Source: an uncultured Bacteroidales bacterium (lineage in GTDB: Bacteria > Bacteroidota > Bacteroidia > Bacteroidales > WCHB1-69). Taken from it: a stretch of DNA of 64,000 nt. A model generated the notes under the pieces. It saw nothing but the letters and a program-made list of their open reading frames with translations. It did not search any database and was not told the origin of the DNA. This document shows positions 20,724 through 38,525 of the stretch, piece by piece (the first letter of the stretch is position 1; every line of letters starts with the position of its first letter). The position numbers were made by a program, and so were the translations under genes. The stretch spans positions 39,299-103,298 of the forward strand of contig CAMVBK010000003.1 of the NCBI GenBank assembly GCA_947165685.1, given 5' to 3'.

Positions 20724-22511
20724 TTGGCTAACAAGTCATTGGGAATCAAATGGATAAATGCGGGCAGCAACTATTTCAACGATTATTCGCAGGAGGCCGT
20801 TCCCCTTTACAACGGGAACATTTCCGCCCTTTCCGAAAGTATCTATAACTTATGGAACAGAGGGATTCTAAAACTTTTCCGTTACGACAAGTTGAACAGG
20901 ATCAAAAGGATGCGAACGGCCGCACATCATTTCGAGGGGTCTGGATGGGAGACACCCTCCGACAACTTTGCCACGGATTACACCTACGACTGGAACGGAA
21001 ATTTGCTATCTTTGCGGCGCAAAAACCAATACGGCGAGGAGATGCACGATATCCGATATACGTACCCGAATGGCAACAATCGCCTGGGAAGCATAGCTGC
21101 CACCGGTATTTCATCCAGTGTCTATCAGTACGATGCGTTGGGCAACCTGGTGCGCGACAATGCCGAGGGTTTGACCGTGGGCTGGAACGCCTTGGGAAAA
21201 GTGGATACCATCCGCAGGAACGGTAACCTCCTGTCCGCATTCCGCTACAGTCCCACGGGCCAGCGGCAGGTGAAGACCGACTCCTCGGGCACGGCCTTCT
21301 ACATCCACGACGCCACGGGCAACGTGATGTGCATTTACCGGCAGGATGGCGACACCCTGAGAGCCACGGAGCGGTATCTATATGGCAGCAAGCGTTTAGG
21401 CATGTTGGAGCAACAGGTGTGGATTGCCGCGGGCGGCGTGGCACGATTGCAGGATGCCAGCACCATAGGGGCCCGTGTTTACGAGTTTACCGACCATTTG
21501 GGCAATGTGACCTACACGGCACAAGACCGGAAATACCTTGTGCCGGACAGTTATGGCCAACTTCAATATCTCCCTTCCACGGTCACCTACACCGACTACT
21601 ACCCCTTCGGCTACCCCATGCCAGGCCGAAGTTCCTACATGGGGGGTTATCGGTACTTCTTCAATGGGCAGGAGTCTGATAATGAGGTGTTTGGGGAAGT
21701 GATGAGTTTGACCGCTGAATTCTGGCAGTACGATACGAGGTTGGGCCGGAGGTGGAATGTGGACCCCGTGTTCAAGGAGTACGAGAGTCCGTATGCGTGC
21801 TTCGCGGGGAATCCGGTGCGGTTTGCGGATCCGAGAGGAAAGGATGGACGCGTTACTTATACTGAGACTGAAAATGGAGGAGACATTGTTGTTGAAACAA
21901 AATTCTTCGTTTATGGCAAAGGTGCAGAGATTGCTGTAGAAAACGCGAACAAACAGTTTGCTAAGTTAAACACATCCACTTCTGTTGTGATTGATGGAAA
22001 GACATACAATATCAGGCTGAATATCACATGGGAGGTTCGTCAAGATCTTGCAGACATGGACATTGAGAATATGGATTATGCCGATCTTCAATCAATAGAA
22101 GGGTATCAGGAAGGGGACAATTTCCTAAAAGTAGGGGTTCCCGTAGGAGGAGGAAGAACTGGTTTCCTCGGTGAAGGATACAAGGGCGGAAATACAGGTT
22201 ATTCTTTGGTAACATCCGCAGATGCGGTACTCCATGAATCTTTCCACAATCTGGGATTTAAAGATACGTATTATCAAAAAGGATTCGAACGCGACGTAAT
22301 GTCAAGTGGAGCACTTGCGGGACAAGAAATCAATCAAATTCATTACGAGGCTTTGATTCCTATTATTTTGCAAAACTATAATTACATCAAAGAACGTGTC
22401 ATTGCCAATCAGACGTTGGGGACTAACTGGCCTGTCCATAAATTGGGACTGGACATTAACAATCCGAAACAGTTTCATATTTTGCTACGAAGTATCTATC
22501 TGGATTATTAA
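20724..22511 (+). CDS. RHS repeat-associated core protein, 5'-truncated, with an HExxH C-terminal toxin domain
   Basis: YD repeats YTYDWNGNLLSL and YQYDALGNLV, plus DHLGN and YYPFG. The core end is GGYRYFFNGQESDNE..RLGRRWNVDPV..FADPRGKDG, followed by an unrelated tail containing HESFH. An in-frame stop sits at 20628 and the first start is TTG, so the usual long N-terminal shell is absent. Confidence 0.8.
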   Translation: MANKSLGIKWINAGSNYFNDYSQEAVPLYNGNISALSESIYNLWNRGILKLFRYDKLNRIKRMRTAAHHFEGSGWETPSDNFATDYTYDWNGNLLSLRRKNQYGEEMHDIRYTYPNGNNRLGSIAATGISSSVYQYDALGNLVRDNAEGLTVGWNALGKVDTIRRNGNLLSAFRYSPTGQRQVKTDSSGTAFYIHDATGNVMCIYRQDGDTLRATERYLYGSKRLGMLEQQVWIAAGGVARLQDASTIGARVYEFTDHLGNVTYTAQDRKYLVPDSYGQLQYLPSTVTYTDYYPFGYPMPGRSSYMGGYRYFFNGQESDNEVFGEVMSLTAEFWQYDTRLGRRWNVDPVFKEYESPYACFAGNPVRFADPRGKDGRVTYTETENGGDIVVETKFFVYGKGAEIAVENANKQFAKLNTSTSVVIDGKTYNIRLNITWEVRQDLADMDIENMDYADLQSIEGYQEGDNFLKVGVPVGGGRTGFLGEGYKGGNTGYSLVTSADAVLHESFHNLGFKDTYYQKGFERDVMSSGALAGQEINQIHYEALIPIILQNYNYIKERVIANQTLGTNWPVHKLGLDINNPKQFHILLRSIYLDY

Positions 22512-22515
22512 AACC

Positions 22516-23130
22516 ATGAGACTGACTACGTTAATTTTATATTTGCTGTTACCCATATTCTGTATTGGGCAAAGCAGTGCTGAACAAAAGTTCTGTTTCT
22601 GCTTTTTTGACAAATTTGGAGCAGAAGTAACCCCTTCTGAAATGCTGGTGCTGGACAACACAGGGGGTGTTTTTAATTTAGACAGTTCCAAATGTTTTCG
22701 TCATAAGGCCGACACGTCTTATTCTTTTATTTTGCAGGTGATAGACAGAAATTATTACTTTTCCCAAAAACAGTATGATGCCAATGAGATGTCGGGCTGT
22801 GACACGGTTCGATTGGAAAACATGGAGTGTATTAACAAACTCGCCTTCAGCTCTCACCGATTGAAACTGAACAACCGTCAGAAAAAGCAGATCGCCTCCT
22901 TCTTCTCAAACAGTAGGCGCGGGTTCCATCGCATTGCCATTCTTGTAGGGAAACCAACACGTGCGAAAACAGAAGCGAAACAGTGCGTCAACGATATCAT
23001 CAGATTATACGAAAAGGATTTGAAAGCAAGAAACATTCAGCAAACGCCCGAAGTGATGGTGCATTTCTACAATTTGCCTGAGGGGGGAAATACTTTTACG
23101 TTTGAGATTGAAGCGTATGATTACAAATAA
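22516..23130 (+). CDS. Putative immunity protein 1 (exported)
   Basis: Starts 5 nt after the toxin stop. Signal peptide MRLTTLILYLLLPIFCIGQSS. AT-rich with no known motif; assigned by position. Confidence 0.5.
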   Translation: MRLTTLILYLLLPIFCIGQSSAEQKFCFCFFDKFGAEVTPSEMLVLDNTGGVFNLDSSKCFRHKADTSYSFILQVIDRNYYFSQKQYDANEMSGCDTVRLENMECINKLAFSSHRLKLNNRQKKQIASFFSNSRRGFHRIAILVGKPTRAKTEAKQCVNDIIRLYEKDLKARNIQQTPEVMVHFYNLPEGGNTFTFEIEAYDYK

Positions 23131-23201
23131 CTGTTGTTCCGCGTTGTCCCCGTTGTCGTCAAAAAACACATCTTAATTGTTTCACCAACCCGAAAAAAAC
23201 T

Positions 23202-23209
23202 TATCTTCG
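23202..23209 (+). promoter_or_regulatory. -7-like box TAtcTTCG 4 nt upstream of the orphan-1 ATG
   Basis: cttatcttcgcgccATG. The same arrangement occurs at 25152-25159, with a degenerate version at 26585-26594. Confidence 0.4.
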
Positions 23210-23213
23210 CGCC

Positions 23214-24155
23214 ATGAACCACACCTCCACATACCCGCCAAAATTCCCCCGTCCCGCCATGGGGGGTTATCGGTACTTCTTCAACGGGCAGGAGGCTGAT
23301 AATGAGGTGCTTGGAGAAGGGATGAGTTTGGCCGCTGAATTTTGGCAGTACGACACGAGATTGGGCAGGAGGTGGAATGTGGACCCTGTGTTCAAGGAGT
23401 ACGAGAGTCCGTATGCGTGCTTCGCGGGGAATCCGGTATGGTTTGCGGACAGATTTGGAGCGGATACCGCATTCGACGATAACATAGCTAGAAATAATTT
23501 CTTAGAAAGTTATCAGTGGATTATTGGCCAAATATCATCAATCGAGAATAAAACTGCTGCTATTCGAGCGCAAGCTGCCCAGAAAGGATGGAATGACAAT
23601 AAAACAAATAGTAAAATCGACAAATTATTTGGTAAATACGACTACAACACGCTTCTTGAGATGAGGCAAGGATTTGAGGAAATCATGAGAGATCCTAACA
23701 TAATCGTCACATATTCAACAAACGAAGATATGATAGAAGACTTTACCGGGGGGCACACAAAACATGTTGACGACCTACATGTGAATGTATATTTCCGACG
23801 AAACAAGTTAGGGACCCTCATTCATGAATCCCGTCACGCATGGGGAGTGATAAGAAAAGAGTGGTCATTTAGAGGCGGATATGATACCACAGACGAACTA
23901 GTTGCTTTCACTTGGCAAAGTGTTAAAGATCCGACCGCAGTGAATTTATTTAAAGAAACCGTTTCAAAAATATACTATCGGAATGATTTGAGCCAAATGA
24001 TTGAAATGAGCTTGAGCAGTGCCATCAACTATTATTACATTGAAGTCTTGCATAAGAACATGACCAGAAGTGCTATACCTATACCAGAACCCTTCACTCA
24101 AATAAAAAACATTCAAACCGCAGGTTCTTATATCAGAAAACTCCTGAAAAGATAA
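23214..24155 (+). CDS. Orphan RHS C-terminal module 1 (core end plus an HExxH-containing tail)
   Basis: MNHTSTYPPKFPRPAMGGYRYFFNGQEADNE..RLGRRWNVDPVFKEYESPYACFAGNPVWFADRFG, then a unique tail containing LIHESRHAWG. Confidence 0.75.
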   Translation: MNHTSTYPPKFPRPAMGGYRYFFNGQEADNEVLGEGMSLAAEFWQYDTRLGRRWNVDPVFKEYESPYACFAGNPVWFADRFGADTAFDDNIARNNFLESYQWIIGQISSIENKTAAIRAQAAQKGWNDNKTNSKIDKLFGKYDYNTLLEMRQGFEEIMRDPNIIVTYSTNEDMIEDFTGGHTKHVDDLHVNVYFRRNKLGTLIHESRHAWGVIRKEWSFRGGYDTTDELVAFTWQSVKDPTAVNLFKETVSKIYYRNDLSQMIEMSLSSAINYYYIEVLHKNMTRSAIPIPEPFTQIKNIQTAGSYIRKLLKR

Positions 24156-24203
24156 CTTTAGTTTAGAAGAAGTATTCAATGTCCTCAAATAGTCACATAT
24201 AAA

Positions 24204-25151
24204 ATGAAACGTGCTCTTTATAATCTTGTAACATTCCTCTGTTTTCTAAACTTGCCATCGCTGCATGCACAAAACCAACCACCCGTTTGGATAGAAATTG
24301 TTCAGGGTGGCTTCCCCAATTACATAATCTTTTCACGTTATGGGGTGATTGTGTCAACGTTTGATTATAATCTCAATGACCGCTTGCACCTTTTTAATAC
24401 CTCATACTACCCGACAAGGACATTAGGTAACAGTCACATAGATAGTCTGCTTGAATATGTCGTTTTTCAGTATCAAAACTCAGAGCACAAAAAATTTATC
24501 ACTCATGATGTGTTGATATTGGATGGCTCTTATACAGAAATCAGAATCCATAACGGTCATTCAATTAACACATTAAGGACAACCGAAGAGTGCTACAGCA
24601 AAGAGATGGATATTATTGAACGAATGGCAAATCAAATCCTTAGCGAATTATCGGACTCTAACAGAATAGATCTCGGTGGGTATTGCGATCATTGTGAAAT
24701 CGTCAAAGCATCGCCTTATTGTCATTTCAAAACAATGGAGAATCCGACATTCTATGGATTTTTCTTCCAAATGATTGTTGATGACGAAGTTCTTCTTACT
24801 CTTCATGATGACCTTGGCATATTATATCAAGATACCGATGTGATTTTCATACCACGATTCCCGAACCGCGTCAAAAGGCATGAGTTCATGAATTGGAGAA
24901 AGCTGCTTTATCAAACGATAAGAACGGATATCCTCCAAAGTCAATTTGACACAACACCTTCATATACAGGTGGCTATTTGTTGGTTCGACTTGATGACAA
25001 GTGGGCATATATGAATCACGTGGACAGAAAAGTTATTAATAAATGGCTGAACAAAATGGAATGCGTCGTGCCACGCGCTTATCGCAAATCCTTCAAACGC
25101 AAAAAAACAATGATACTCCAATCGTGGAATAAAAATGTATCTAATATTTAG
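24204..25151 (+). CDS. Putative immunity protein 2 (exported)
   Basis: Signal peptide MKRALYNLVTFLCFLNLPSLHAQ. Assigned by its position after the orphan toxin. AT-rich. Confidence 0.5.
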   Translation: MKRALYNLVTFLCFLNLPSLHAQNQPPVWIEIVQGGFPNYIIFSRYGVIVSTFDYNLNDRLHLFNTSYYPTRTLGNSHIDSLLEYVVFQYQNSEHKKFITHDVLILDGSYTEIRIHNGHSINTLRTTEECYSKEMDIIERMANQILSELSDSNRIDLGGYCDHCEIVKASPYCHFKTMENPTFYGFFFQMIVDDEVLLTLHDDLGILYQDTDVIFIPRFPNRVKRHEFMNWRKLLYQTIRTDILQSQFDTTPSYTGGYLLVRLDDKWAYMNHVDRKVINKWLNKMECVVPRAYRKSFKRKKTMILQSWNKNVSNI

Positions 25152-25159
25152 TATCTTCG
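25152..25159 (+). promoter_or_regulatory. -7-like box TAtcTTCG 4 nt upstream of the orphan-2 ATG
   Basis: agtatcttcgcgccATG. Confidence 0.4.
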
Positions 25160-25163
25160 CGCC

Positions 25164-26219
25164 ATGATCCGCACCGCCACATACCCGCCCCAGCCCCCTC
25201 GTTACTATAAGGGGGGGTATCGGTACTTTTTCAACGGGCAAGAGGGAGATAACGAGGTGCTTGGGGAGGGGACTCTGCACGCCTTCGAGTACCGCATGCA
25301 CGACACGCGCACCGGGCGGTTCTGGAGCGTTGATCCCTTGGCGGGGAAGTTCCCGTGGTGGTCCACTTATCAGTTCGCAGGACTTATGCCAACATGGAGC
25401 AGAGAGCTGGAAGGGTTGGAACCGCTTAATAAAGGGAGTTATAATGGTCAAGGTGCTTATGCTCCTGTATTGGACGAAAACAATAATCCCGTTGATGGTA
25501 CAGAAGACCAAACTTGGATATGGAACAACGACACTTGGAATCAATCTGAATATGCCATTGTATATGAAATAATGAACAGTGTTTTCAAAAACGCCAAACC
25601 CTCGTTATTGAGAGGTGCCGAAGTCGCAGTAAATTTGTATGGCTCCACGTTTGGCATAAATAATCGGGAGGCTATTTGTCATTTCTTTGCGCAAGCAGGA
25701 CATGAAAGTGCTGGATTCACTAAAGTCGAAGAGAGTTTCAATTACACTGTCAAAGGTCTGTTGGGAACCTTCGGTAAATATTTCTACGTAGGAGCTCCTG
25801 TGGAAGGCAAATTTAATGCTGAAGAATATGGCCGAACAAACGATCATCCGGCAAACTATGAAGGTATTGCCAATATTGTTTATGACAATCGAATGGGTAA
25901 TGGGAAAAATGAAGGCTATTTGTATCGAGGTCGAGGATTAATACAATTAACAGGAAAGTCAAATTATCAAGCTTTTACGAACTACTTGAATAAAACGTTC
26001 ACGAACAATACAGTTGATTTTGTCCAATCACCTCAACTGGTGGCAACAGATCAATATGCGGTATTAAGTGCCATGTGGTTTTTCAAAAAGAACGTTATTG
26101 ACAAGATTGACATTGATAATGCAAGTGTAAAAGATGTGACGAAAATTGTTAATGGAGGGTATAATGGGTTGAAAGACCGCGAGAGTAAATATGAACAACT
26201 AAAAAACACTCTAAAGTGA
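25164..26219 (+). CDS. Orphan RHS C-terminal module 2 with a GH19/COG3179-like peptidoglycan hydrolase (chitinase/lysozyme) tail
   Basis: The core end is diverged: GGYRYFFNGQEGDNE..TRTGRFWSVDPLAGKFPWWSTYQFAG. The tail has ICHFFAQAGHESAGF, YRGRGLIQLTGKSNYQAF and LSAMWFF, which are GH19-type motifs. Confidence 0.75.
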   Translation: MIRTATYPPQPPRYYKGGYRYFFNGQEGDNEVLGEGTLHAFEYRMHDTRTGRFWSVDPLAGKFPWWSTYQFAGLMPTWSRELEGLEPLNKGSYNGQGAYAPVLDENNNPVDGTEDQTWIWNNDTWNQSEYAIVYEIMNSVFKNAKPSLLRGAEVAVNLYGSTFGINNREAICHFFAQAGHESAGFTKVEESFNYTVKGLLGTFGKYFYVGAPVEGKFNAEEYGRTNDHPANYEGIANIVYDNRMGNGKNEGYLYRGRGLIQLTGKSNYQAFTNYLNKTFTNNTVDFVQSPQLVATDQYAVLSAMWFFKKNVIDKIDIDNASVKDVTKIVNGGYNGLKDRESKYEQLKNTLK

Positions 26220-26581
26220 AACAATACATCTTCATTTTATTTTGGACATTAATTGGGGTATTCGTTTCTTCTGCTCAAGTCAGGATAGATTGCAATACAA
26301 AAGATTTGTATGATAATATTCAAGGCGTGTGGAGGCAAACTGATGGTTCTGGAAATGCTCTGGCAATAGTAGATAGCAATGCGTATTTTTTGTATGGCAC
26401 AGATCAAAGTGTTTGGCAAGATGATGTTGGAAACTTATTCAGCATAGTGAAAAATGACAAAGAAGAATCATTTTTTATATGGTGGTTAGATATGTTAGTT
26501 CAAGAATTTGTTTTGGAAAAAGATACATTGCTGCTGTTGGATTTTAAAGGACGTTCTGAAACGTATATTCGAATTAAGTAA
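26216..26581 (+). CDS. Putative immunity protein 3 (exported)
   Basis: GTG start overlaps the toxin stop (gtga). Signal peptide MKQYIFILFWTLIGVFVSSAQ. Confidence 0.5.
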   Translation: MKQYIFILFWTLIGVFVSSAQVRIDCNTKDLYDNIQGVWRQTDGSGNALAIVDSNAYFLYGTDQSVWQDDVGNLFSIVKNDKEESFFIWWLDMLVQEFVLEKDTLLLLDFKGRSETYIRIK

Positions 26582-26594
26582 AAACTATCGCGCC

Positions 26595-27517
26595 ATGAAT
26601 TTCACGACCACATACCCGCCAAAATCCTCCCGTTCCGCTATGGGGGTATATTGGTATTTCTTCAACGGGCAGGAGGCTGATAATGAGGTGCTTGGAGAGG
26701 GGCGAGTTTGACCGCGGAATTCTGGCAGTACGACACGAGGCTGGGCCGGAGGTGGAATGTGGACCCTGTTTTCAAGGAGTATGAAAGTCCGTATGCGTGC
26801 TTTGCAGGGAACCCGGTGTGGTTTGCGGATCCGAATGGAGACAGTAGTGTTGTTGATGCTAAAGGGTACATGATTTATTATGATGAGAACGACAAGGATT
26901 TGCGAGTTTTCATTAATGAGAACGGTAAGTTAAGACAAATTGGAGAATTAGGAAAGACAATTGAAGCAGACACTTGGTTCGCTAATTTGCTAAAAGAAAA
27001 TGCTGCCGCCGCGAAAGATTCTTGGAATCCTGTTAGCTTCAGGAACAAAGTGAAGCAGTATGGTGAGTGGGATTATAAATATGCTAGTAAAGGCAATAAA
27101 GAAAATGAGAACATCCGTTATCACTTGTTAGGCATTGCCTTTTACAGAAAAGACAAAAACAACAAGGACGCTGATTTGCCAGAGACCTATTTCTCGTTTA
27201 ATGGAATGATAGGAAGAGCCGAAGATTTGAACAACTTTCACTTTGGTGTTGTTGGCAAAGCATTCGGATGGTTCCCTGAGACCTTTATGCTAAAACAGGC
27301 TGGAAAAGCCGAAATGGATAAATGGGCGGAAGAAGGGCGGACTGTTCCTGCTGAATGGACCCCAAGAATAGAAGTTATCAAATTTCGAGGCGGAATGATA
27401 CCAACCTCTTATACCACAACAAAGTTACTGCCTCCTTACGGGGATAACCCTATTGACCATGAGTGGATAAAACGCGGATTTGAATATTATAATAATATGA
27501 CACTATCAAATGACTGA
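26595..27517 (+). pseudogene. Orphan RHS C-terminal module 3, frameshifted
   Basis: MNFTTTYPPKSSRSAMGVYWYFFNGQEADNEVLGEG stops at 26709-26711. The core continues in another frame (AEFWQYDTRLGRRWNVDPV...FADPNGDS). Compared with orphan 1, 1 nt is missing near 26697-26702. Confidence 0.7.
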
Positions 27518-27520
27518 AAG

Positions 27521-28132
27521 ATGAACCGTATCCCACGTATAATCGTCCTATCAATTCTGATTGTCATAGGTGTCGTAGGTGTAGCTTATGTGGCAATTAT
27601 GGCGTATATACACTATGATGTGTTCGGAAAAAGTCCGTCGTATGAAGGGACCAGACAAAATTTCATCAATAATGAGTTATATTTTCAGAAGACAGAAGAT
27701 TGTTTTCAGAAAATTTTCCAATGCTGTTCTTCCGTCGATTCAACAATGGAACTCATTAGATTCACTATTGACAATTCTAGCAACAATTTTGTGTTTTTTC
27801 AATATTTTTCGATAGAAGACAGAAGGCAACTTCTATTCCCGATTAGGGATTCTGGTCTTGAAATAAGCCAAAATCAAAAAGAAACATTGCAGTCCAACGG
27901 CATCACTCCTCAAATGATAGAAACACTTTATTCTAATCTAAAAAAAACAAATTGTCGTTCGGTGGAGAAAGATAAACTAAATTCTAACAACACGATATTT
28001 ATGACTTTTAAAATACTCGATTATTGTTCTATTCAATATATGTTTTATCCTCAACCTTTTGAAGAAGATTCCATTAAGAGTCATATCTCCAACACGCCAC
28101 TCGGTCGGCGAGTAAGGATCTATGTCGAATAA
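27521..28132 (+). CDS. Putative immunity protein 4 (N-terminal membrane anchor)
   Basis: Starts 3 nt after the toxin stop. TM helix IIVLSILIVIGVVGVAYVAIMAY. Confidence 0.45.
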   Translation: MNRIPRIIVLSILIVIGVVGVAYVAIMAYIHYDVFGKSPSYEGTRQNFINNELYFQKTEDCFQKIFQCCSSVDSTMELIRFTIDNSSNNFVFFQYFSIEDRRQLLFPIRDSGLEISQNQKETLQSNGITPQMIETLYSNLKKTNCRSVEKDKLNSNNTIFMTFKILDYCSIQYMFYPQPFEEDSIKSHISNTPLGRRVRIYVE

Positions 28133-34746: not shown

Positions 34747-35211
34747 TTATTGCCTTTTTGGGCGAGCCGTCACAGGGGGGCGGCGCTTCCAAGCGTCGCC
34801 AAAATTACTAATTTCTAATTGCGGCAGCTTGTTGTTCGAGACCCTCCCGTCGGCGTAGTAGTAGCGCATCTCGCCGTTGCTGGAGAACACGCCCTCGTTG
34901 CCGAGAAATTGTCCTGACCCCGGCATGTCGTCCACCGAGCCAATCCCGTGCACAAAACCGACAAAGTCACGGTACCACGGAAAAAATACCTCCTCCCCGC
35001 TCGGGTCCACCCACTGCAGCGGGTTGTTCAAACAGTACGAGTACCGGTTGTAGCTCTGCGTGAAGTCGGGCAGTTGCACGAAATTGTCGGGGGAGAAGAA
35101 GCGGGCGATCACGGGGTCGTACAGGCGGCCGTTCATGTTGATGACCTTCAGGCCGTCGTAGTGCTCGTGGCCGGTGAAGTTATGTGTGTGATTTCTAACA
35201 ACTTTATTCAT
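34747..35211 (-). CDS. Orphan RHS core-end fragment with a short truncated tail
   Basis: FTGHEHYDGLKVINMNGRLYDPVIARFFSPDNFVQ..NRYSYCLNNPLQWVDPSGE. About 187 bp are near-identical to 37592-37778. The tail shares SSNGEMRYYxADGRVSNNKLPQ with ORF 35671-36384. Confidence 0.7.
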   Translation of the reverse strand: MNKVVRNHTHNFTGHEHYDGLKVINMNGRLYDPVIARFFSPDNFVQLPDFTQSYNRYSYCLNNPLQWVDPSGEEVFFPWYRDFVGFVHGIGSVDDMPGSGQFLGNEGVFSSNGEMRYYYADGRVSNNKLPQLEISNFGDAWKRRPPVTARPKRQ

Positions 35212-35216
35212 TTCCT

Positions 35217-35669
35217 TTATAAGACTTTCGCATTGATTAATAACGACAGCATAAAGAAAGCAACAATTATCATAGTATGTAAGAGGGCAATGGCTACAAC
35301 GAGAACCATCGGTAAGACTCTTTTCAAGTTTTCAATAGATTTAACAAAAGATTCCCCGGCATAAGACAAGAACACTTCCTTTTTTTTTGCTGATGATTTT
35401 ATGGTGTAATGATCGATTACAGACAGTGAAATTACAACTAAAAGCACACCTATAAAAACAAAAAGGTAATATTCACTGTAATATTGCAATACAAGATTTG
35501 GAAAGAAAAAAGGAACAATACTCCACAACACGATCCAAATATGAAATCCCAATAATCCCAAAGCACTTGATAGTGTGGAATACATTATTTCAAGAGAAAG
35601 CCATTGATACGCTCTACTAAGCCATTTCAACCACCATGAAAAGTGAATATTTTTTGCTTGAGAATCCAT
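35217..35669 (-). CDS. Putative immunity protein (polytopic membrane protein)
   Basis: Its ATG lies 2 nt after the upstream toxin stop. It has 3-4 hydrophobic helices and is AT-rich. Confidence 0.45.
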   Translation of the reverse strand: MDSQAKNIHFSWWLKWLSRAYQWLSLEIMYSTLSSALGLLGFHIWIVLWSIVPFFFPNLVLQYYSEYYLFVFIGVLLVVISLSVIDHYTIKSSAKKKEVFLSYAGESFVKSIENLKRVLPMVLVVAIALLHTMIIVAFFMLSLLINAKVL

Positions 35670-35670
35670 G

Positions 35671-36384
35671 TTAATACATCTTTCCAAAACCGCCGAAGCT
35701 ATCTGTTGATACGTCTAATATAAAATATGTAGTACTAATTGCAAATCCTAAAGGACCGCCAAAGACACCTAAACAAGTCATGGCAAAATCTATCCCGAAT
35801 TTTGTTGTTGCCTCCCATGAAAATCCATGATTGTTGGTATATGTAAATAAATCATATCCTTCAAGACCAATAGATACAGCTGCCAATCCATTTCCTGTCC
35901 ACTTTGCCACGCTTTTGAGTGCTTTACCTGACTGTCCGATAGAATGGTTATATCTCCATGTCCTTTTAGATTCAGAAAGATTTTTAAACTTACGCCATGT
36001 CCTAGCAGATTTATACTTGCTCCTGGCTGCAAATTCAATCAGATGATACTGCGTTCCAACAGAGACTGATAACCCGTTCAACCCGTTGATATATCCGGGA
36101 TTTATGGGAGCCATATATTGGAAAGTGGTAGAGAAGCTGCCCGTCTGTCCGGAGGGGTCGCCGATGCGGTAGAAGCCCGCGCCGCGCATGGGGAAAGAGG
36201 GGAAGGCAAGCTCCGATGGATTCCCCCGGTCGATGAACACCTGCGGCAGCTTGTTGTTCGAGACCCTCCCGTCGGCGAAGTAGTAGCGCATCTCGCCGTT
36301 GCTGGAGAAGCCGTGTGTCTCCGCGTATCGCACGGATCGCGCGGATAATTCCTCAGGGCTGTATGTTCGGGGCGGGTTCGTCAT
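35671..36384 (-). CDS. Orphan toxin module with a Gly-rich hydrophobic C-terminus (putative membrane-active toxin)
   Basis: The N-terminus shares the linker SSNGEMRYYFADGRVSNNKLPQ. The C-terminus GLAAVSIGLEG...FAMTCLGVFGGPLGFAISTTYFIL..FGGFG is glycine-zipper-like. ATG 36384 was chosen, with a -7 box upstream. Confidence 0.55.
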   Translation of the reverse strand: MTNPPRTYSPEELSARSVRYAETHGFSSNGEMRYYFADGRVSNNKLPQVFIDRGNPSELAFPSFPMRGAGFYRIGDPSGQTGSFSTTFQYMAPINPGYINGLNGLSVSVGTQYHLIEFAARSKYKSARTWRKFKNLSESKRTWRYNHSIGQSGKALKSVAKWTGNGLAAVSIGLEGYDLFTYTNNHGFSWEATTKFGIDFAMTCLGVFGGPLGFAISTTYFILDVSTDSFGGFGKMY

Positions 36385-36402
36385 TTTTCTACAATTCCGT
36401 CG

Positions 36403-36410
36403 CAAAAGTA
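36403..36410 (-). promoter_or_regulatory. -7 promoter box TActTTTG (minus strand) for the orphan toxin
   Basis: The plus strand reads caaaagta, 18 nt upstream of ATG 36384. Confidence 0.4.
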
Positions 36411-36525: not shown

Positions 36526-37197
36526 TTAAGGTTCAAAGATGTCATCGTCAAATTCAATGTCAAAGATATTACCTTGAGGAGATGTTGGGTCGTCTGATGT
36601 TTGTGTTTTAATCAACCACCGTTCGTCGAAAGAGGTTGGATAAGGACAGCGTTTTCTGTATTTCAATTTATCTTTTTCATAATATGGGGCTTTAAGAGTG
36701 TTGTATTTGAGAATCTCATATTCATTTGTTTTTTCATCAAAATAAAGCAGGGAGATGGAACCTTTCAATATTGAAATAATTTTGTTGCTGGCCAGTTTTA
36801 TATCTTCTATGATAATTTTTTTATCACAAGGAAGAACTTCATCTGAAAATGCCGCCACTAACCAAGCTGAAGACACACTGTTTGATTTTCGAATTGTTTC
36901 ATCACAAGTAATAAAGGGTATTGTGTCCTTGCTGTTGTTAAAAAGAAGGAAAAAAGGAGTCTTGTCGTTGTCTAACAATGATGAGTCTTCAGTTTGGATT
37001 TTCATATATAATAGGTGGTAATAGATTTGGTACAAATTAATGTTGAGTCTCACGGATGATTCCCCGATATAATTTACCCTATCGAATTCATCGTTTACAT
37101 ATACAACTTCTTTTACGGTTATTGCTGCTTGAGCATTCACTCGAACAGATAATACTGAAACAATAGACGCCATCAGCGCAACCAAGATCCTGTTCAT
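36526..37197 (-). CDS. Putative immunity protein (exported)
   Basis: Signal peptide MNRILVALMASIVSVLSVRVNAQA. Lies directly downstream of the RHS tail. AT-rich. Confidence 0.5.
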   Translation of the reverse strand: MNRILVALMASIVSVLSVRVNAQAAITVKEVVYVNDEFDRVNYIGESSVRLNINLYQIYYHLLYMKIQTEDSSLLDNDKTPFFLLFNNSKDTIPFITCDETIRKSNSVSSAWLVAAFSDEVLPCDKKIIIEDIKLASNKIISILKGSISLLYFDEKTNEYEILKYNTLKAPYYEKDKLKYRKRCPYPTSFDERWLIKTQTSDDPTSPQGNIFDIEFDDDIFEP

Positions 37198-37208
37198 ACG
37201 ACAATTGC

Positions 37209-37427
37209 TTAATACTTTTTATATAATTGAGGATTTCCACTGACGACTTTTTTGAATTTTGCACTGGTTTTGGCATATATTTCTTGTGCTCGTTGATAAG
37301 CGACAGCATAAGATTCTCTTTGGAAAGGTGTCAAATTATTGAATTCCACTATGCCTAATTCCTTACATTGTTTCATGTGCCCTATTTCATTATCATAACT
37401 GCTTTTTATATCGTAATAGTTGTCCAA
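37209..37427 (-). other. Out-of-frame continuation of the RHS toxin tail (72 codons)
   Basis: Starts (TTG) inside the T6 run at the end of ORF 37406-38188 and ends 11 nt before the immunity ATG. One extra T would fuse the two frames. Confidence 0.5.
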
Positions 37428-38188
37428 AAAAGAAAATTGCGAGAAATCATTCGCACACCATCGTTACCTACCCAAGACATGTTGTCCTTGATTTGATTCC
37501 AAAAATCACGATTGATGATGTGAATTTTACCATCATCAATCCCATCTGTGCCTAAAAACACGCCATATTGGTCAAAATAATCCCCAAACATCTCCCCGCT
37601 CGGGTCCACCCACTGCAGCGGGTTGTTCAAACAGTACGAGTACCGGTTGTAGCTCTGCGTGAAGTCGGGCAGTTGCACGAAATTGTCGGGGGAGAAGAAG
37701 CGGGCGATCACGGGGTCGTACAGGCGGCCGTTCATGTTGATGACCTTCAGGCCGGCGTAGTGCTCGTGGCCGGTGAAGCCGCGGTCGAAACGGAAGGTCT
37801 CTGCCAATTGGCCTGGCTCGCCCTCTGCAAACACCGTCCAGTCGGCATCGGTCTTCACGTTGCCCCACGGGTCGAAGTGCAAAGCGCGGACCACCTGCTT
37901 GCCGCTGTTGGTGATGTGCGTGTAGCTGCCGAAACGGTCGGGATGCACGTAGTACATACTGTCAATGCCGTTGCGGCGCACGCAGATGGCGGCGAGGCCG
38001 TTTACACCATAGACGTAGTTGTAATGGGTGGTCACCCCGCCGGCTTCCACCTCCTTCTCGTAGTTGGAGCTGATGTGGTAGCGGGTGCGCACCACATGCC
38101 CGTGGTATTTGAACACTGCCTTCACCCGCTGTCCGTCGGCACCGTACTCCAACAGGAACGGCTGCTTGATTACGTGTCGTGTTTTCAT
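37406..38188 (-). CDS. RHS repeat-associated core fragment plus short tail (probably frameshifted toxin gene)
   Basis: YYVHPDRFGSYTHITN..LHFDPWGN..FTGHEHYAGLKVINMNGRLYDPVIARFFSPDNF..NRYSYCLNNPLQWVDPSGE. Only about 200 aa of the shell are present. Confidence 0.75.
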   Translation of the reverse strand: MKTRHVIKQPFLLEYGADGQRVKAVFKYHGHVVRTRYHISSNYEKEVEAGGVTTHYNYVYGVNGLAAICVRRNGIDSMYYVHPDRFGSYTHITNSGKQVVRALHFDPWGNVKTDADWTVFAEGEPGQLAETFRFDRGFTGHEHYAGLKVINMNGRLYDPVIARFFSPDNFVQLPDFTQSYNRYSYCLNNPLQWVDPSGEMFGDYFDQYGVFLGTDGIDDGKIHIINRDFWNQIKDNMSWVGNDGVRMISRNFLFWTTITI

Positions 38189-38195
38189 GACTATG

Positions 38196-38525
38196 CTACT
38201 TTTTCACGATTTTCCAGGTCTCCGTTTTTCCGTTCAATGCGATGGTCAGCATATAAACTCCTGTTTTATACGCTGAAAGATCTATGGTTATCGTTGTTCC
38301 GGTAATCCACGCCTCTGAAAGCAGCTGTCCTGCCAGATTGGAAAGCCGGTAATAGCTGCCGGCAACAGGCTGCCCGAACTGCAACGATTTAGCATCGACC
38401 TCAATCGTGGATCGCAGAATGCGGTTGCCTGCGGCGTCGTAGTCATAGGTGCGGGGGAGGTTTTCCTGGGCGAGGCACGAAAGAACGATAAACGATGCCA
38501 GCGACAACACGATGATTTTCTTCAT
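38196..38525 (-). CDS. Mini-protein: signal peptide + single YD repeat + T9SS type-A C-terminal sorting domain
   Basis: MKKIIVLSLASFIVLSCLAQ, then TYDYDAAGNRILR, then YRLSNLAGQLL...IDLSAYKTGVYMLTIALNGKTETWKIVKK (Por secretion tail pattern). Its stop lies 7 nt before the RHS fragment ATG. Confidence 0.55.
   Translation of the reverse strand: MKKIIVLSLASFIVLSCLAQENLPRTYDYDAAGNRILRSTIEVDAKSLQFGQPVAGSYYRLSNLAGQLLSEAWITGTTITIDLSAYKTGVYMLTIALNGKTETWKIVKK

What the first reader, a model, noticed from the sequence alone, without database searches (positions are those of the whole stretch)
37209..37431. RHS toxin tail of array B is split at a T6/A6 homopolymer; one extra base would restore a 72-codon extension ending 11 nt before the immunity gene
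The lead ORF ends ...ISRNFLFWTTITI* at 37406. A second frame opens inside the run cttttttgg (plus strand A6 at 37426-37431) and reads DNYYDIKSSYDNEIGHMKQCKELGIVEFNNLTPFQRESYAVAYQRAQEIYAKTSAKFKKVVSGNPQLYKKY*. It stops at 37209, just before the immunity ATG at 37197. Inserting one T gives a continuous ...RNFLFLDNYYDIK... protein. The geometry (tail end abutting the immunity start) indicates the extended form is the ancestral toxin. The homopolymer makes this a candidate slipped-strand ON/OFF switch rather than irreversible decay. A sequencing error is the trivial alternative.
Basis: seen in the sequence. Interest (0 to 1): 0.55.

Follow-up and report, generated by a model that had tools for sequence, protein, structure and literature searches.

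The report
Deletion-broken orphan RHS toxin, no switch
The split toxin reading frame is real, but it was caused by a 217-base deletion that removed the middle third of a metallopeptidase-type RHS toxin, not by slippage in the T6/A6 run, so it is an ordinary dead toxin cassette beside an intact immunity gene and not an ON/OFF switch.

Summary
On the minus strand a 260-codon RHS fragment (38188..37406) ends ...ISRNFLFWTTITI*. A 72-codon frame (37427..37209) follows in the -1 frame and stops 11 nt before a 223-codon ORF.

A syntenic contig from a near-identical strain (L003, 98.8% nt identity in the flanks) carries the uninterrupted 398-aa gene. The window lacks 217 nt of it, which is 72 codons plus 1 nt, with the junction at 37436|37435. 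The T6 run lies 4 nt downstream of that junction. It is also T6 in the intact allele and in every other allele recovered.

Adding one T would therefore restore the frame but not the protein. The product would still lack residues 58-129 of the roughly 200-aa toxin domain, including the family-invariant Y88 and N89, a helix and the predicted beta-sheet.

Two independent metagenome contigs carry the identical junction with T6, so sequencing error is excluded. No length variant of the run was found.

Relatives belong to Pfam Tox-MPTase2 (13 of 16). Across strains the locus exists as an intact allele (14 contigs), this deletion allele (3), and alleles lacking the whole array (8 or more). This is ordinary decay of an orphan toxin cassette with the immunity gene retained. 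Interest is low.

The parts
37406..38188 (-). Truncated lead ORF (260 aa). It comprises an N-terminally truncated RHS core fragment, the first 53 residues of the toxin domain after DPSG (EMFGDY...VRMISRN), and a 9-residue out-of-frame tail (FLFWTTITI).
   Evidence: ORF and translation. TIGR03696 Rhs_assc_core, E=3.7e-17, residues 106-198; collinear with residues 1-251 of the intact 398-aa P0003.
37595..37606 (-). DPSG motif (within ...NNPLQWVDPSGE...) at the end of the RHS-associated core. It marks the boundary between the conserved core and the variable toxin domain.
   Evidence: Sequence. It aligns with DPxG in 15 of 16 family members. It is the end of the TIGR03696 match.
37435..37436 (-). 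Junction of the 217-nt deletion (CGCAAT|TTTCTTTTTTGG). In the intact allele, 72 codons plus 1 nt lie between these two bases. The flanking microhomology is imperfect (CAAT on one side, CAAC on the other).
   Evidence: blastn and base-by-base comparison with L003 10754-10970. The identical junction is present in L004 and L007.
37426..37431 (-). T6 run (A6 on the plus strand). It is native sequence encoding part of Ser-Phe-Leu in the ancestral frame, and it is not the lesion.
   Evidence: It is T6 in L003 (intact), L001 (intact frame), L004 and L007. A collection scan that allowed 4-9 bases at this position found no other length.
37209..37433 (-). Stranded C-terminal remnant of the toxin in the ancestral frame (SFLDNYYD...NEIGH...RESYAVAYQ...KKY*, 74 codons plus stop). 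It holds the NExxH motif and the downstream invariant Glu. The 72-codon TTG ORF 37427..37209 lies within it.
   Evidence: It matches residues 325-398 of P0003, P0043 and P0045 (the full remnant from S325; the 72-codon ORF itself matches 327-398). In the predicted structure it forms the helical bundle at domain residues 130-204.
36526..37197 (-). Intact 223-aa ORF with an N-terminal signal peptide. It is the presumed cognate immunity gene, an assignment made by position only.
   Evidence: It has the same length and position in L003 and L004. Its 90%-identity cluster has 10 members on about 26 contigs, nearly all 223 aa. It has no Pfam, NCBIfam or PADLOC match.
34747..36405 (-). Further orphan fragments of the same array: a 244-aa toxin fragment (36405..35671), a 156-aa membrane ORF (35687..35217), and a 154-aa RHS core end with a truncated toxin start (35211..34747). 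They are linked to the module above by 187-nt (99%) and 68-nt (99%) repeats.
   Evidence: TIGR03696, E=3e-16, for the 154-aa ORF.

Best explanation
This is an orphan RHS toxin cassette (an RHS core fragment, a Tox-MPTase2-type C-terminal toxin, and an immunity gene) whose toxin domain has been broken by a 217-bp internal deletion.

The deletion most likely arose by replication slippage or illegitimate recombination at a short imperfect repeat (CAAT/CAAC). That mechanism is inferred. The deletion removed domain residues 58-129 and one extra base. Translation from the RHS fragment therefore runs 9 codons out of frame and stops, and the last 74 codons of the toxin are left stranded in the -1 frame just upstream of the intact immunity gene.

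The T6 run is ordinary coding sequence (Ser-Phe-Leu) that happens to lie 4 nt past the junction. Its length is the same in intact and deleted alleles. Gaining one T would restore the frame but would give a protein without the conserved central helix, the beta-sheet and the invariant Tyr, so it is not a functional ON state.

The likely biological outcome is a disarmed toxin remnant next to a retained immunity gene. That gene may still protect against the intact toxin carried by most conspecific strains. This last point is inferred and not tested.
For: Shown directly:
1. P0003 (398 aa) is the uninterrupted homolog (E=3.6e-71). Its contig L003 is syntenic with window 48050-38378 at 98.8% nt identity.
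2. The window lacks L003 10754-10970, which is 217 nt, with the junction at 37436|37435. The T-run is identical (T6) in both.
3. All 14 full-length relatives contain the segment missing here, so the event is a deletion in the window's lineage and not an insertion in L003. The missing block holds the invariant Y88 and N89.
4. An AlphaFold2 model of the intact domain (pLDDT 87, pTM 0.85) places the deleted residues 58-129 on helix 78-87, strands 95-97, 103-110 and 114-121, and helix 123-128.
5. L004 and L007 carry the identical junction with T6. They differ from the window at 20 of 596 positions in the RHS core, so they are independent copies.
6. Exact-sequence clusters show the intact 398-aa alleles on 14 contigs and the 260-aa deletion allele on 3. 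The 127-aa alleles, in which the whole array is gone, are on 8 contigs.
7. Thirteen of 16 relatives match Pfam Tox-MPTase2. Its published signature is 'Y, HExxH', found in Bacteroidetes with RHS repeats (PMC3482391).
Against: - No read-level data are available, so minority T7 sub-populations cannot be excluded.
- The remnant C-half carries no further stops or indels in any of the three deletion-allele copies. This is expected for a recent deletion but does not prove loss of function.
- P0003 and the window remnants do not themselves reach a Pfam threshold, so family assignment rests on homology to members that do.
- The immunity role of the 223-aa ORF rests on position only.
- Even the intact 398-aa allele lacks the RHS N-terminus, so the activity of either allele in this genome is unknown.
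Confidence: 0.92

Rival explanations
1. Slipped-strand ON/OFF switch. The T6/A6 tract expands and contracts, toggling between a truncated toxin and an extended one.
For: A single added T does join the two frames. The tract lies inside the window in which both frames are open.
Against: - The tract is T6 in every allele recovered, both intact and deleted: L001, L003, L004, L007 and the window.
- A scan of 241 million metagenome records and 32 million genome contigs, allowing 4-9 bases at the tract, found no other length in a related sequence.
- The intact proteins P0043, P0045 and P0046 read RLQLSFLDNYYD, which requires T6.
- The ON product would lack 72 core residues, including the invariant Y88 and N89.
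- T6 is short for a contingency tract (general knowledge), and such runs are common here, with 70 in the window.
Confidence: 0.03
2. Sequencing or assembly error in a homopolymer. On this view the true genome has T7 and an intact gene.
For: Homopolymer miscalls are common in some sequencing chemistries.
Against: - The discrepancy with the intact allele is 217 nt, not 1 nt.
- The same junction and T6 are found in two independent JGI metagenome contigs.
- The window's 260-aa product is itself on record from NCBI and ENA.
Confidence: 0.01
3. Programmed -1 ribosomal frameshifting or transcriptional slippage at the T-run produces some fusion protein without any DNA change.
For: The frame relation is -1, and a T-rich run is present.
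Against: - In the zero frame the codons are CTT TTT TGG. The canonical X XXY YYZ phase is therefore not met, because the A-site codon is TGG (read from the sequence).
- The 111 nt from the run onwards fold no better than shuffled sequence (MFE -8.8 kcal/mol against a shuffle mean of -12.7, z=+1.42).
- The overlap was created by a deletion and is absent from the intact majority allele, so it cannot be an evolved recoding site.
- Any product would lack the domain core.
Confidence: 0.02
4. The 72-codon ORF is an independent small gene, for example an accessory or second immunity protein, translated from its TTG start.
For: Gene callers have called it as a separate 72-aa protein (P0001). It forms a self-contained helical bundle in the model.
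Against: - In L001 the same frame is open upstream and continues into homologous toxin sequence (...HYNTTIYPLQKG...SQWRLQLSFLDNYYD), so P0001 is a gene-caller artefact on a short contig.
- In every relative the segment is the C-terminus of a larger toxin domain.
- The 72-aa product with Met start is not on record for the window's sequence.
Confidence: 0.03

Closest known systems
Orphan rhs-CT/rhsI modules downstream of or apart from main rhs genes (for example Salmonella Typhimurium LT2; Koskiniemi et al. 2014, PMC3967940)
   Same: It is a gene fragment that begins inside the RHS core, and the equivalent orphans are described as lacking translation-initiation and export signals (PMC3967940 abstract). 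It carries a variable C-terminal toxin followed directly by a candidate immunity gene. It shares near-identical core-end repeats with neighbouring modules (187 nt at 99%), which could mediate recombination.
   Different: The host is a Bacteroidota-type genome with T9SS-related genes nearby. No full-length rhs gene of this family lies in the window. The toxin is additionally broken by an internal deletion, so recombination onto a main gene would not yield a working toxin.
Tox-MPTase2 (Pfam PF15638; Zhang et al. 2012, PMC3482391)
   Same: Thirteen of 16 aligned relatives match the model. The domain sits C-terminal to the RHS core in Bacteroidota-type contigs, as described for the family. The E-x-x-H plus downstream Glu pattern is conserved.
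   Different: The intact close homolog and the window remnants do not themselves reach the Pfam threshold. The first His of HExxH is Asn here and in 7 of 16 relatives. The conserved Tyr lies in the part deleted from the window. No solved structure resembles the model.
Homopolymer-based phase-variable (contingency) genes
   Same: The only shared feature is a mononucleotide run inside a region where two reading frames overlap.
   Different: There is no length polymorphism among alleles, the tract is short, and the 'ON' length does not regenerate the ancestral protein.

Membership tests
RHS/YD polymorphic-toxin orphan cassette | RHS repeat-associated core domain immediately upstream of the variable C-terminal domain | tested here: met
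   TIGR03696 Rhs_assc_core, E=3.7e-17, 62.6 bits (cut-off 32.5), residues 106-198 of the ORF. It ends at the DPSG motif.
RHS/YD polymorphic-toxin orphan cassette | A fragmentary gene that lacks the N-terminal region and most of the RHS shell | tested here: met
   The ORF is 260 aa (398 aa in the intact allele) and starts about 190 residues before the core end. The upstream ORFs are a 109-aa T9SS-tail protein and a 729-aa FG-GAP protein, not RHS.
RHS/YD polymorphic-toxin orphan cassette | A cognate immunity gene directly downstream that neutralises the toxin | not testable with these tools
   A conserved 223-aa signal-peptide ORF starts 11 nt after the toxin stop in both the window and L003. 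No family match was found. Its function was not assayed.
RHS/YD polymorphic-toxin orphan cassette | A full-length main rhs gene with which the orphan can recombine | not testable with these tools
   None of this family is present in the 64-kb window. Only the inter-module repeats are seen.
Tox-MPTase2 (PF15638) | Match to the family HMM above the gathering score | tested here: inconclusive
   The repaired window protein and P0003 give no hit. Thirteen of 16 homologs do (best E=5e-10; P0004, P0006, P0007, P0017, P0020 and P0024 score above 25 bits). The query is linked to P0004 at E=1.3e-25.
Tox-MPTase2 (PF15638) | The conserved Tyr of the published signature 'Y, HExxH' (PMC3482391) | tested here: not met
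   The invariant Y88 (in the HYN motif) is present in the intact P0003 but lies inside the 217-nt deletion, so it is absent from the window. Identifying Y88 with the published 'Y' is my inference.
Tox-MPTase2 (PF15638) | HExxH zinc-binding motif | tested here: not met
   The window and P0003 have NEIGH, with the first His replaced by Asn. The Glu and the second His are invariant in the family. Seven of 16 relatives share the Asn.
Homopolymer phase-variable (contingency) locus | Tract length differs between alleles or sub-populations | tested here: not met
   The tract is T6 in the window, L001, L003, L004 and L007. No 4-9-base variant was found in two collection scans. Read-level data are not available.
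Homopolymer phase-variable (contingency) locus | One tract length yields the full functional protein | tested here: not met
   T7 would give a protein missing domain residues 58-129, which include the conserved block and the predicted beta-sheet.
Programmed -1 ribosomal frameshift site | A slippery heptamer X XXY YYZ in the zero frame, plus a downstream stimulatory structure | tested here: not met
   The zero-frame codons are CTT TTT TGG. The RNA from the run onwards gives z=+1.42 against shuffles.

The most novel reading that the evidence does not exclude
The deletion allele is not dead. Occasional T6-to-T7 slippage, or a ribosomal -1 slip, fuses the N-terminal beta-hairpin module directly to the C-terminal NExxH helical bundle. 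The resulting 'mini' protein would have some retained function, for example as a decoy that binds the immunity protein or as an altered-specificity toxin, and this would explain why the remnant frame is still open in three diverged copies.
Probability: 0.03. Interest if true: 0.5.

Novelty: new member of a known kind. Interest (0 to 1): 0.12.

Why it matters
The matter is mainly one of annotation. The two small ORFs (260 aa and 72 aa) should be annotated as a single pseudogene: an orphan RHS / Tox-MPTase2 toxin with a 217-bp internal deletion. They are not a phase-variable gene.

The case also shows that a homopolymer lying inside a frame overlap is not evidence of slippage unless an intact allele is available for comparison.

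A modest biological point follows. Within one species this orphan locus exists as an intact allele, an internally deleted allele and wholly deleted alleles, while the putative immunity gene stays intact wherever the module is present. A related toxin in another lineage has independently lost its catalytic core through a 336-nt in-frame deletion. This fits the known pattern of toxin loss with immunity retention in polymorphic-toxin loci, but it adds nothing categorically new.

Tried and rejected
- **Word-indexed protein search** with the one-T-repaired C-terminal domain gave only two hits, P0001 and P0002. They suggested a lesion upstream of the run. I first suspected a 2-nt TC insertion from the L001 comparison. 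That idea was superseded once the exhaustive HMMER search found the intact P0003.
- **BLASTP of the C-half against the P0002 tail** showed no significant similarity. This was later explained, because P0002 is itself an internal-deletion derivative of a P0006-like toxin.
- **Family scans of the window ORFs.** Pfam found nothing for the toxin or immunity ORFs (only a sub-threshold Por_Secre_tail match on the 109-aa ORF and Polyketide_cyc2 on the flanking 134-aa ORF); PADLOC found nothing. NCBIfam matched only the RHS core.
- **Structure and profile searches.** Foldseek of the confident AlphaFold2 model against the PDB gave no match with E<0.001. A profile search of PDB sequences gave nothing better than E=0.94. 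The zincin assignment therefore rests on Pfam and the literature, not on a structural match.
- **The genome-contig scan** returned only chance matches in unrelated taxa, so the organism was not identified. The look-up of encoding contigs had no record for the window's own 260-aa product.
- **The two putative immunity proteins** (window 223 aa, L002 198 aa) showed no similarity to each other.
It was rerun without that row.

Full report
**1. Observation**

On the minus strand, ORF 38188..37406 (260 aa) ends ...NDGVRMISRNFLFWTTITI*. The -1 frame reads ...SQFSFLDNYYDIKSSYDNEIGHMKQ...NPQLYKKY* and is listed as a 72-codon TTG ORF at 37427..37209. A 223-codon ORF with a signal peptide starts at 37197, 11 nt after that stop. 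The run cTTTTTTgg occupies 37431..37426.

**2. Context**

- The lead ORF is not a full RHS protein. It begins about 190 residues before the end of the RHS-associated core (TIGR03696, E=3.7e-17, residues 106-198). That core ends in ...NNPLQWVDPSGE, after which the variable C-terminal domain begins.
- Upstream lie a 109-aa ORF (signal peptide, one YD repeat, a T9SS sorting tail), a 729-aa FG-GAP/T9SS protein and an M23 peptidase.
- Downstream lie more orphan fragments (36405..35671, 35687..35217, 35211..34747). They share 187-nt and 68-nt near-identical repeats with each other and with this module.
- The GC content falls from about 60% in the RHS core to about 34% in the toxin and immunity part. 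This is typical of a swapped-in cassette.

**3. Finding the intact gene**

A word-indexed search with the repaired domain returned only a 72-aa call (P0001, on the 724-nt contig L001) and a 191-aa protein (P0002). In L001 the frame is open through the same T6 run into upstream homologous sequence. That was the first sign that the run is not the lesion.

An exhaustive HMMER search then found P0003 (398 aa, E=3.6e-71) together with about 20 more distant relatives. The contig carrying P0003, L003, is syntenic with the window. L003 1-9691 matches window 48050-38378 at 98.8% identity, with the same order of MFS, M23, FG-GAP, T9SS-tail ORF, RHS fragment and 223-aa ORF.

**4. The lesion**

Base-by-base comparison shows that the window lacks L003 10754-10970. 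This is 217 nt, or 72 codons plus 1 nt.

- Intact allele: ...ATT TCT CGC AAT | CTT GCA ... TTA CAA C | TT TCT TTT TTG GAC...
- Window: ...ATT TCT CGC AAT | TT TCT TTT TTG GAC...

The junction therefore lies at 37436|37435, flanked by imperfect CAAT/CAAC microhomology. The T6 run has identical sequence in both alleles and encodes part of Ser-Phe-Leu in the ancestral frame.

The polarity of the event is clear. All 14 full-length relatives contain the missing block (consensus ...FSxKPSEANLSDxAIxNIxxHYNxTG...), so the window's lineage suffered a deletion.

**5. What the deletion removes**

An AlphaFold2 model of the intact domain, built on a 16-sequence alignment, is confident (pLDDT 87, pTM 0.85). 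Numbering the domain from the D of DPSG, residues 58-129 were lost. They cover helix 78-87, strands 95-97, 103-110 and 114-121, and helix 123-128. They include the family-invariant Y88 and N89.

What remains is the N-terminal beta-hairpin module (residues 1-57) and the C-terminal helical bundle (residues 130-204). The bundle carries NEIGH (145-149) and the invariant E170. A T7 allele would therefore encode a frame-continuous protein whose core is gutted.

**6. Family**

Thirteen of the 16 aligned relatives match Pfam Tox-MPTase2 (best E=5e-10). Zhang et al. 2012 describe this family as a zincin-like metallopeptidase toxin with the signature 'Y, HExxH', found in Bacteroidetes and associated with RHS repeats (PMC3482391).

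P0003 and the window pieces do not reach the Pfam threshold on their own. Their first His is Asn, as it is in 7 of 16 relatives. No solved structure resembles the model, either by Foldseek (no hit with E<0.001) or by profile search of PDB sequences.

**7. Is it an artefact, and does the run vary?**

I scanned the metagenome and genome collections with TTTC-N{4,9}-GGACAACTATTACGAT. This pattern would catch intact and deleted alleles with any run length from 4 to 9. It recovered two further copies of the deletion allele: L004 (Ga0310697_10017361) and L007 (Ga0247609_10139737). Both have the identical junction and T6. Every other hit was unrelated.

L004 and L007 differ from the window at 20 of 596 RHS-core positions. 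L004 also lacks the upstream small ORF. They are therefore independent genomes.

Exact-sequence cluster look-ups give the following allele counts:
- intact 398-aa alleles on 14 contigs (P0003, P0043, P0045);
- the 260-aa deletion allele on 3 contigs;
- 127-aa alleles on 8 contigs, and a 139-aa allele on 1 contig.

In the 127-aa alleles the RHS stub abuts the Polyketide_cyc2 gene, which means the entire orphan array is absent. The 223-aa ORF is conserved at full length wherever the module exists.

**8. Rival readings**

- *Phase variation.* There is no length polymorphism, the tract is short and commonplace (70 A/T runs of 6 or more in the window), and the 'ON' state is not functional.
- *Sequencing error.* The difference from the intact allele is 217 nt, and the junction is replicated in independent assemblies.
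- *Programmed -1 frameshifting.* The zero-frame codons are CTT TTT TGG, which is not an X XXY YYZ heptamer. The RNA from the run onwards folds no better than shuffles (z=+1.42). The frame overlap itself is a by-product of the deletion.
- *Independent 72-aa gene.* The only such call (P0001) is an artefact on a short contig whose frame continues upstream into toxin sequence.

**9. Mechanism and verdict**

*Shown:* the two ORFs are the halves of an orphan RHS / Tox-MPTase2 toxin gene split by a 217-bp out-of-frame deletion. The homopolymer is a bystander.

*Inferred:*
- The deletion arose by slippage or illegitimate recombination at short repeats.
- The cassette is non-functional as a toxin. Like other orphans, it may never have been expressed without recombination onto a main rhs gene (compare PMC3967940).
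- The retained 223-aa ORF may act as an immunity gene against the intact toxin that is common in conspecifics (compare PMC10539506 abstract).

This is an ordinary example of decay at a rearrangement hot spot. It is a new member of a known kind, and its interest is low.

Noticed in passing
window 38378-38386 (within ORF 38525..38196, minus strand): The small ORF just upstream (signal peptide, YDYDAAGNR repeat, T9SS sorting tail) is 109 aa here but 149 aa in L003. The difference is a 120-nt in-frame deletion between 9-nt direct repeats CGTTGCAGT. L004 lacks this ORF entirely. This is a second, independent structural polymorphism at the same locus.
   Followed up: partly
L002 845-1420 compared with L012 4001-4834: P0002 (191 aa) is an internal-deletion derivative of a P0006-like Tox-MPTase2 toxin (277 aa). 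The deletion is 336 nt, in frame, lies between imperfect ACATA/ACAAA repeats, and removes the HEEQH motif. The downstream 198-aa signal-peptide ORF is kept at 99.8% identity. It is an independent case of the same toxin family being disarmed by an internal deletion.
   Followed up: partly
window 37359-37373 (NEIGH), and alignment A2/A3: Seven of 16 Tox-MPTase2 relatives, including this toxin, have NExxH instead of HExxH. The Glu, the second His and a downstream Glu are invariant. It is unknown whether this sub-clade is still a metallopeptidase.
   Followed up: no
L014 6001-6792 and L015 172-963, corresponding to window ~37870 and 34605: In at least 8 contigs from related strains the RHS fragment is cut to 127 aa and abuts the Polyketide_cyc2-like gene directly. 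The whole roughly 3.2-kb orphan array (toxin, immunity gene and the further fragments) is therefore absent in those strains.
   Followed up: partly
window 34747-36405 (minus strand): The 154-aa ORF (35211..34747) has the RHS core end plus the start of a toxin (...SSNGEMRYYYADGRVSNNKLPQ) and then diverges. The continuation of that toxin (SSNGEMRYYFADGRVSNNKLPQVFIDRG...) lies in the 244-aa ORF 36405..35671, which lacks any core. The two share a 68-nt 99% repeat (34820-34887 and 36242-36309). This looks like a cassette split by rearrangement.
   Followed up: no
window 20724-28132 (plus strand): A second array, from a different RHS family with core end YRYFFNGQExDNEV. It has a 595-aa RHS fragment carrying an HExxH-type tail (VLHESFHNLG), followed by three further modules starting at 23214, 25164 and 26708. 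These share 121-199-nt repeats. One has HESRH and one looks like a chitinase or lysozyme-type domain. Small signal-peptide ORFs are interleaved.
   Followed up: no
model m29b249d81cd2 (P0003 residues 195-398): The intact Tox-MPTase2-type domain gives a confident AlphaFold2 model (pLDDT 87, pTM 0.85). It has no Foldseek neighbour in the PDB at E<0.001 and no profile hit to PDB sequences. The family has no solved structural representative that these tools can detect.
   Followed up: partly
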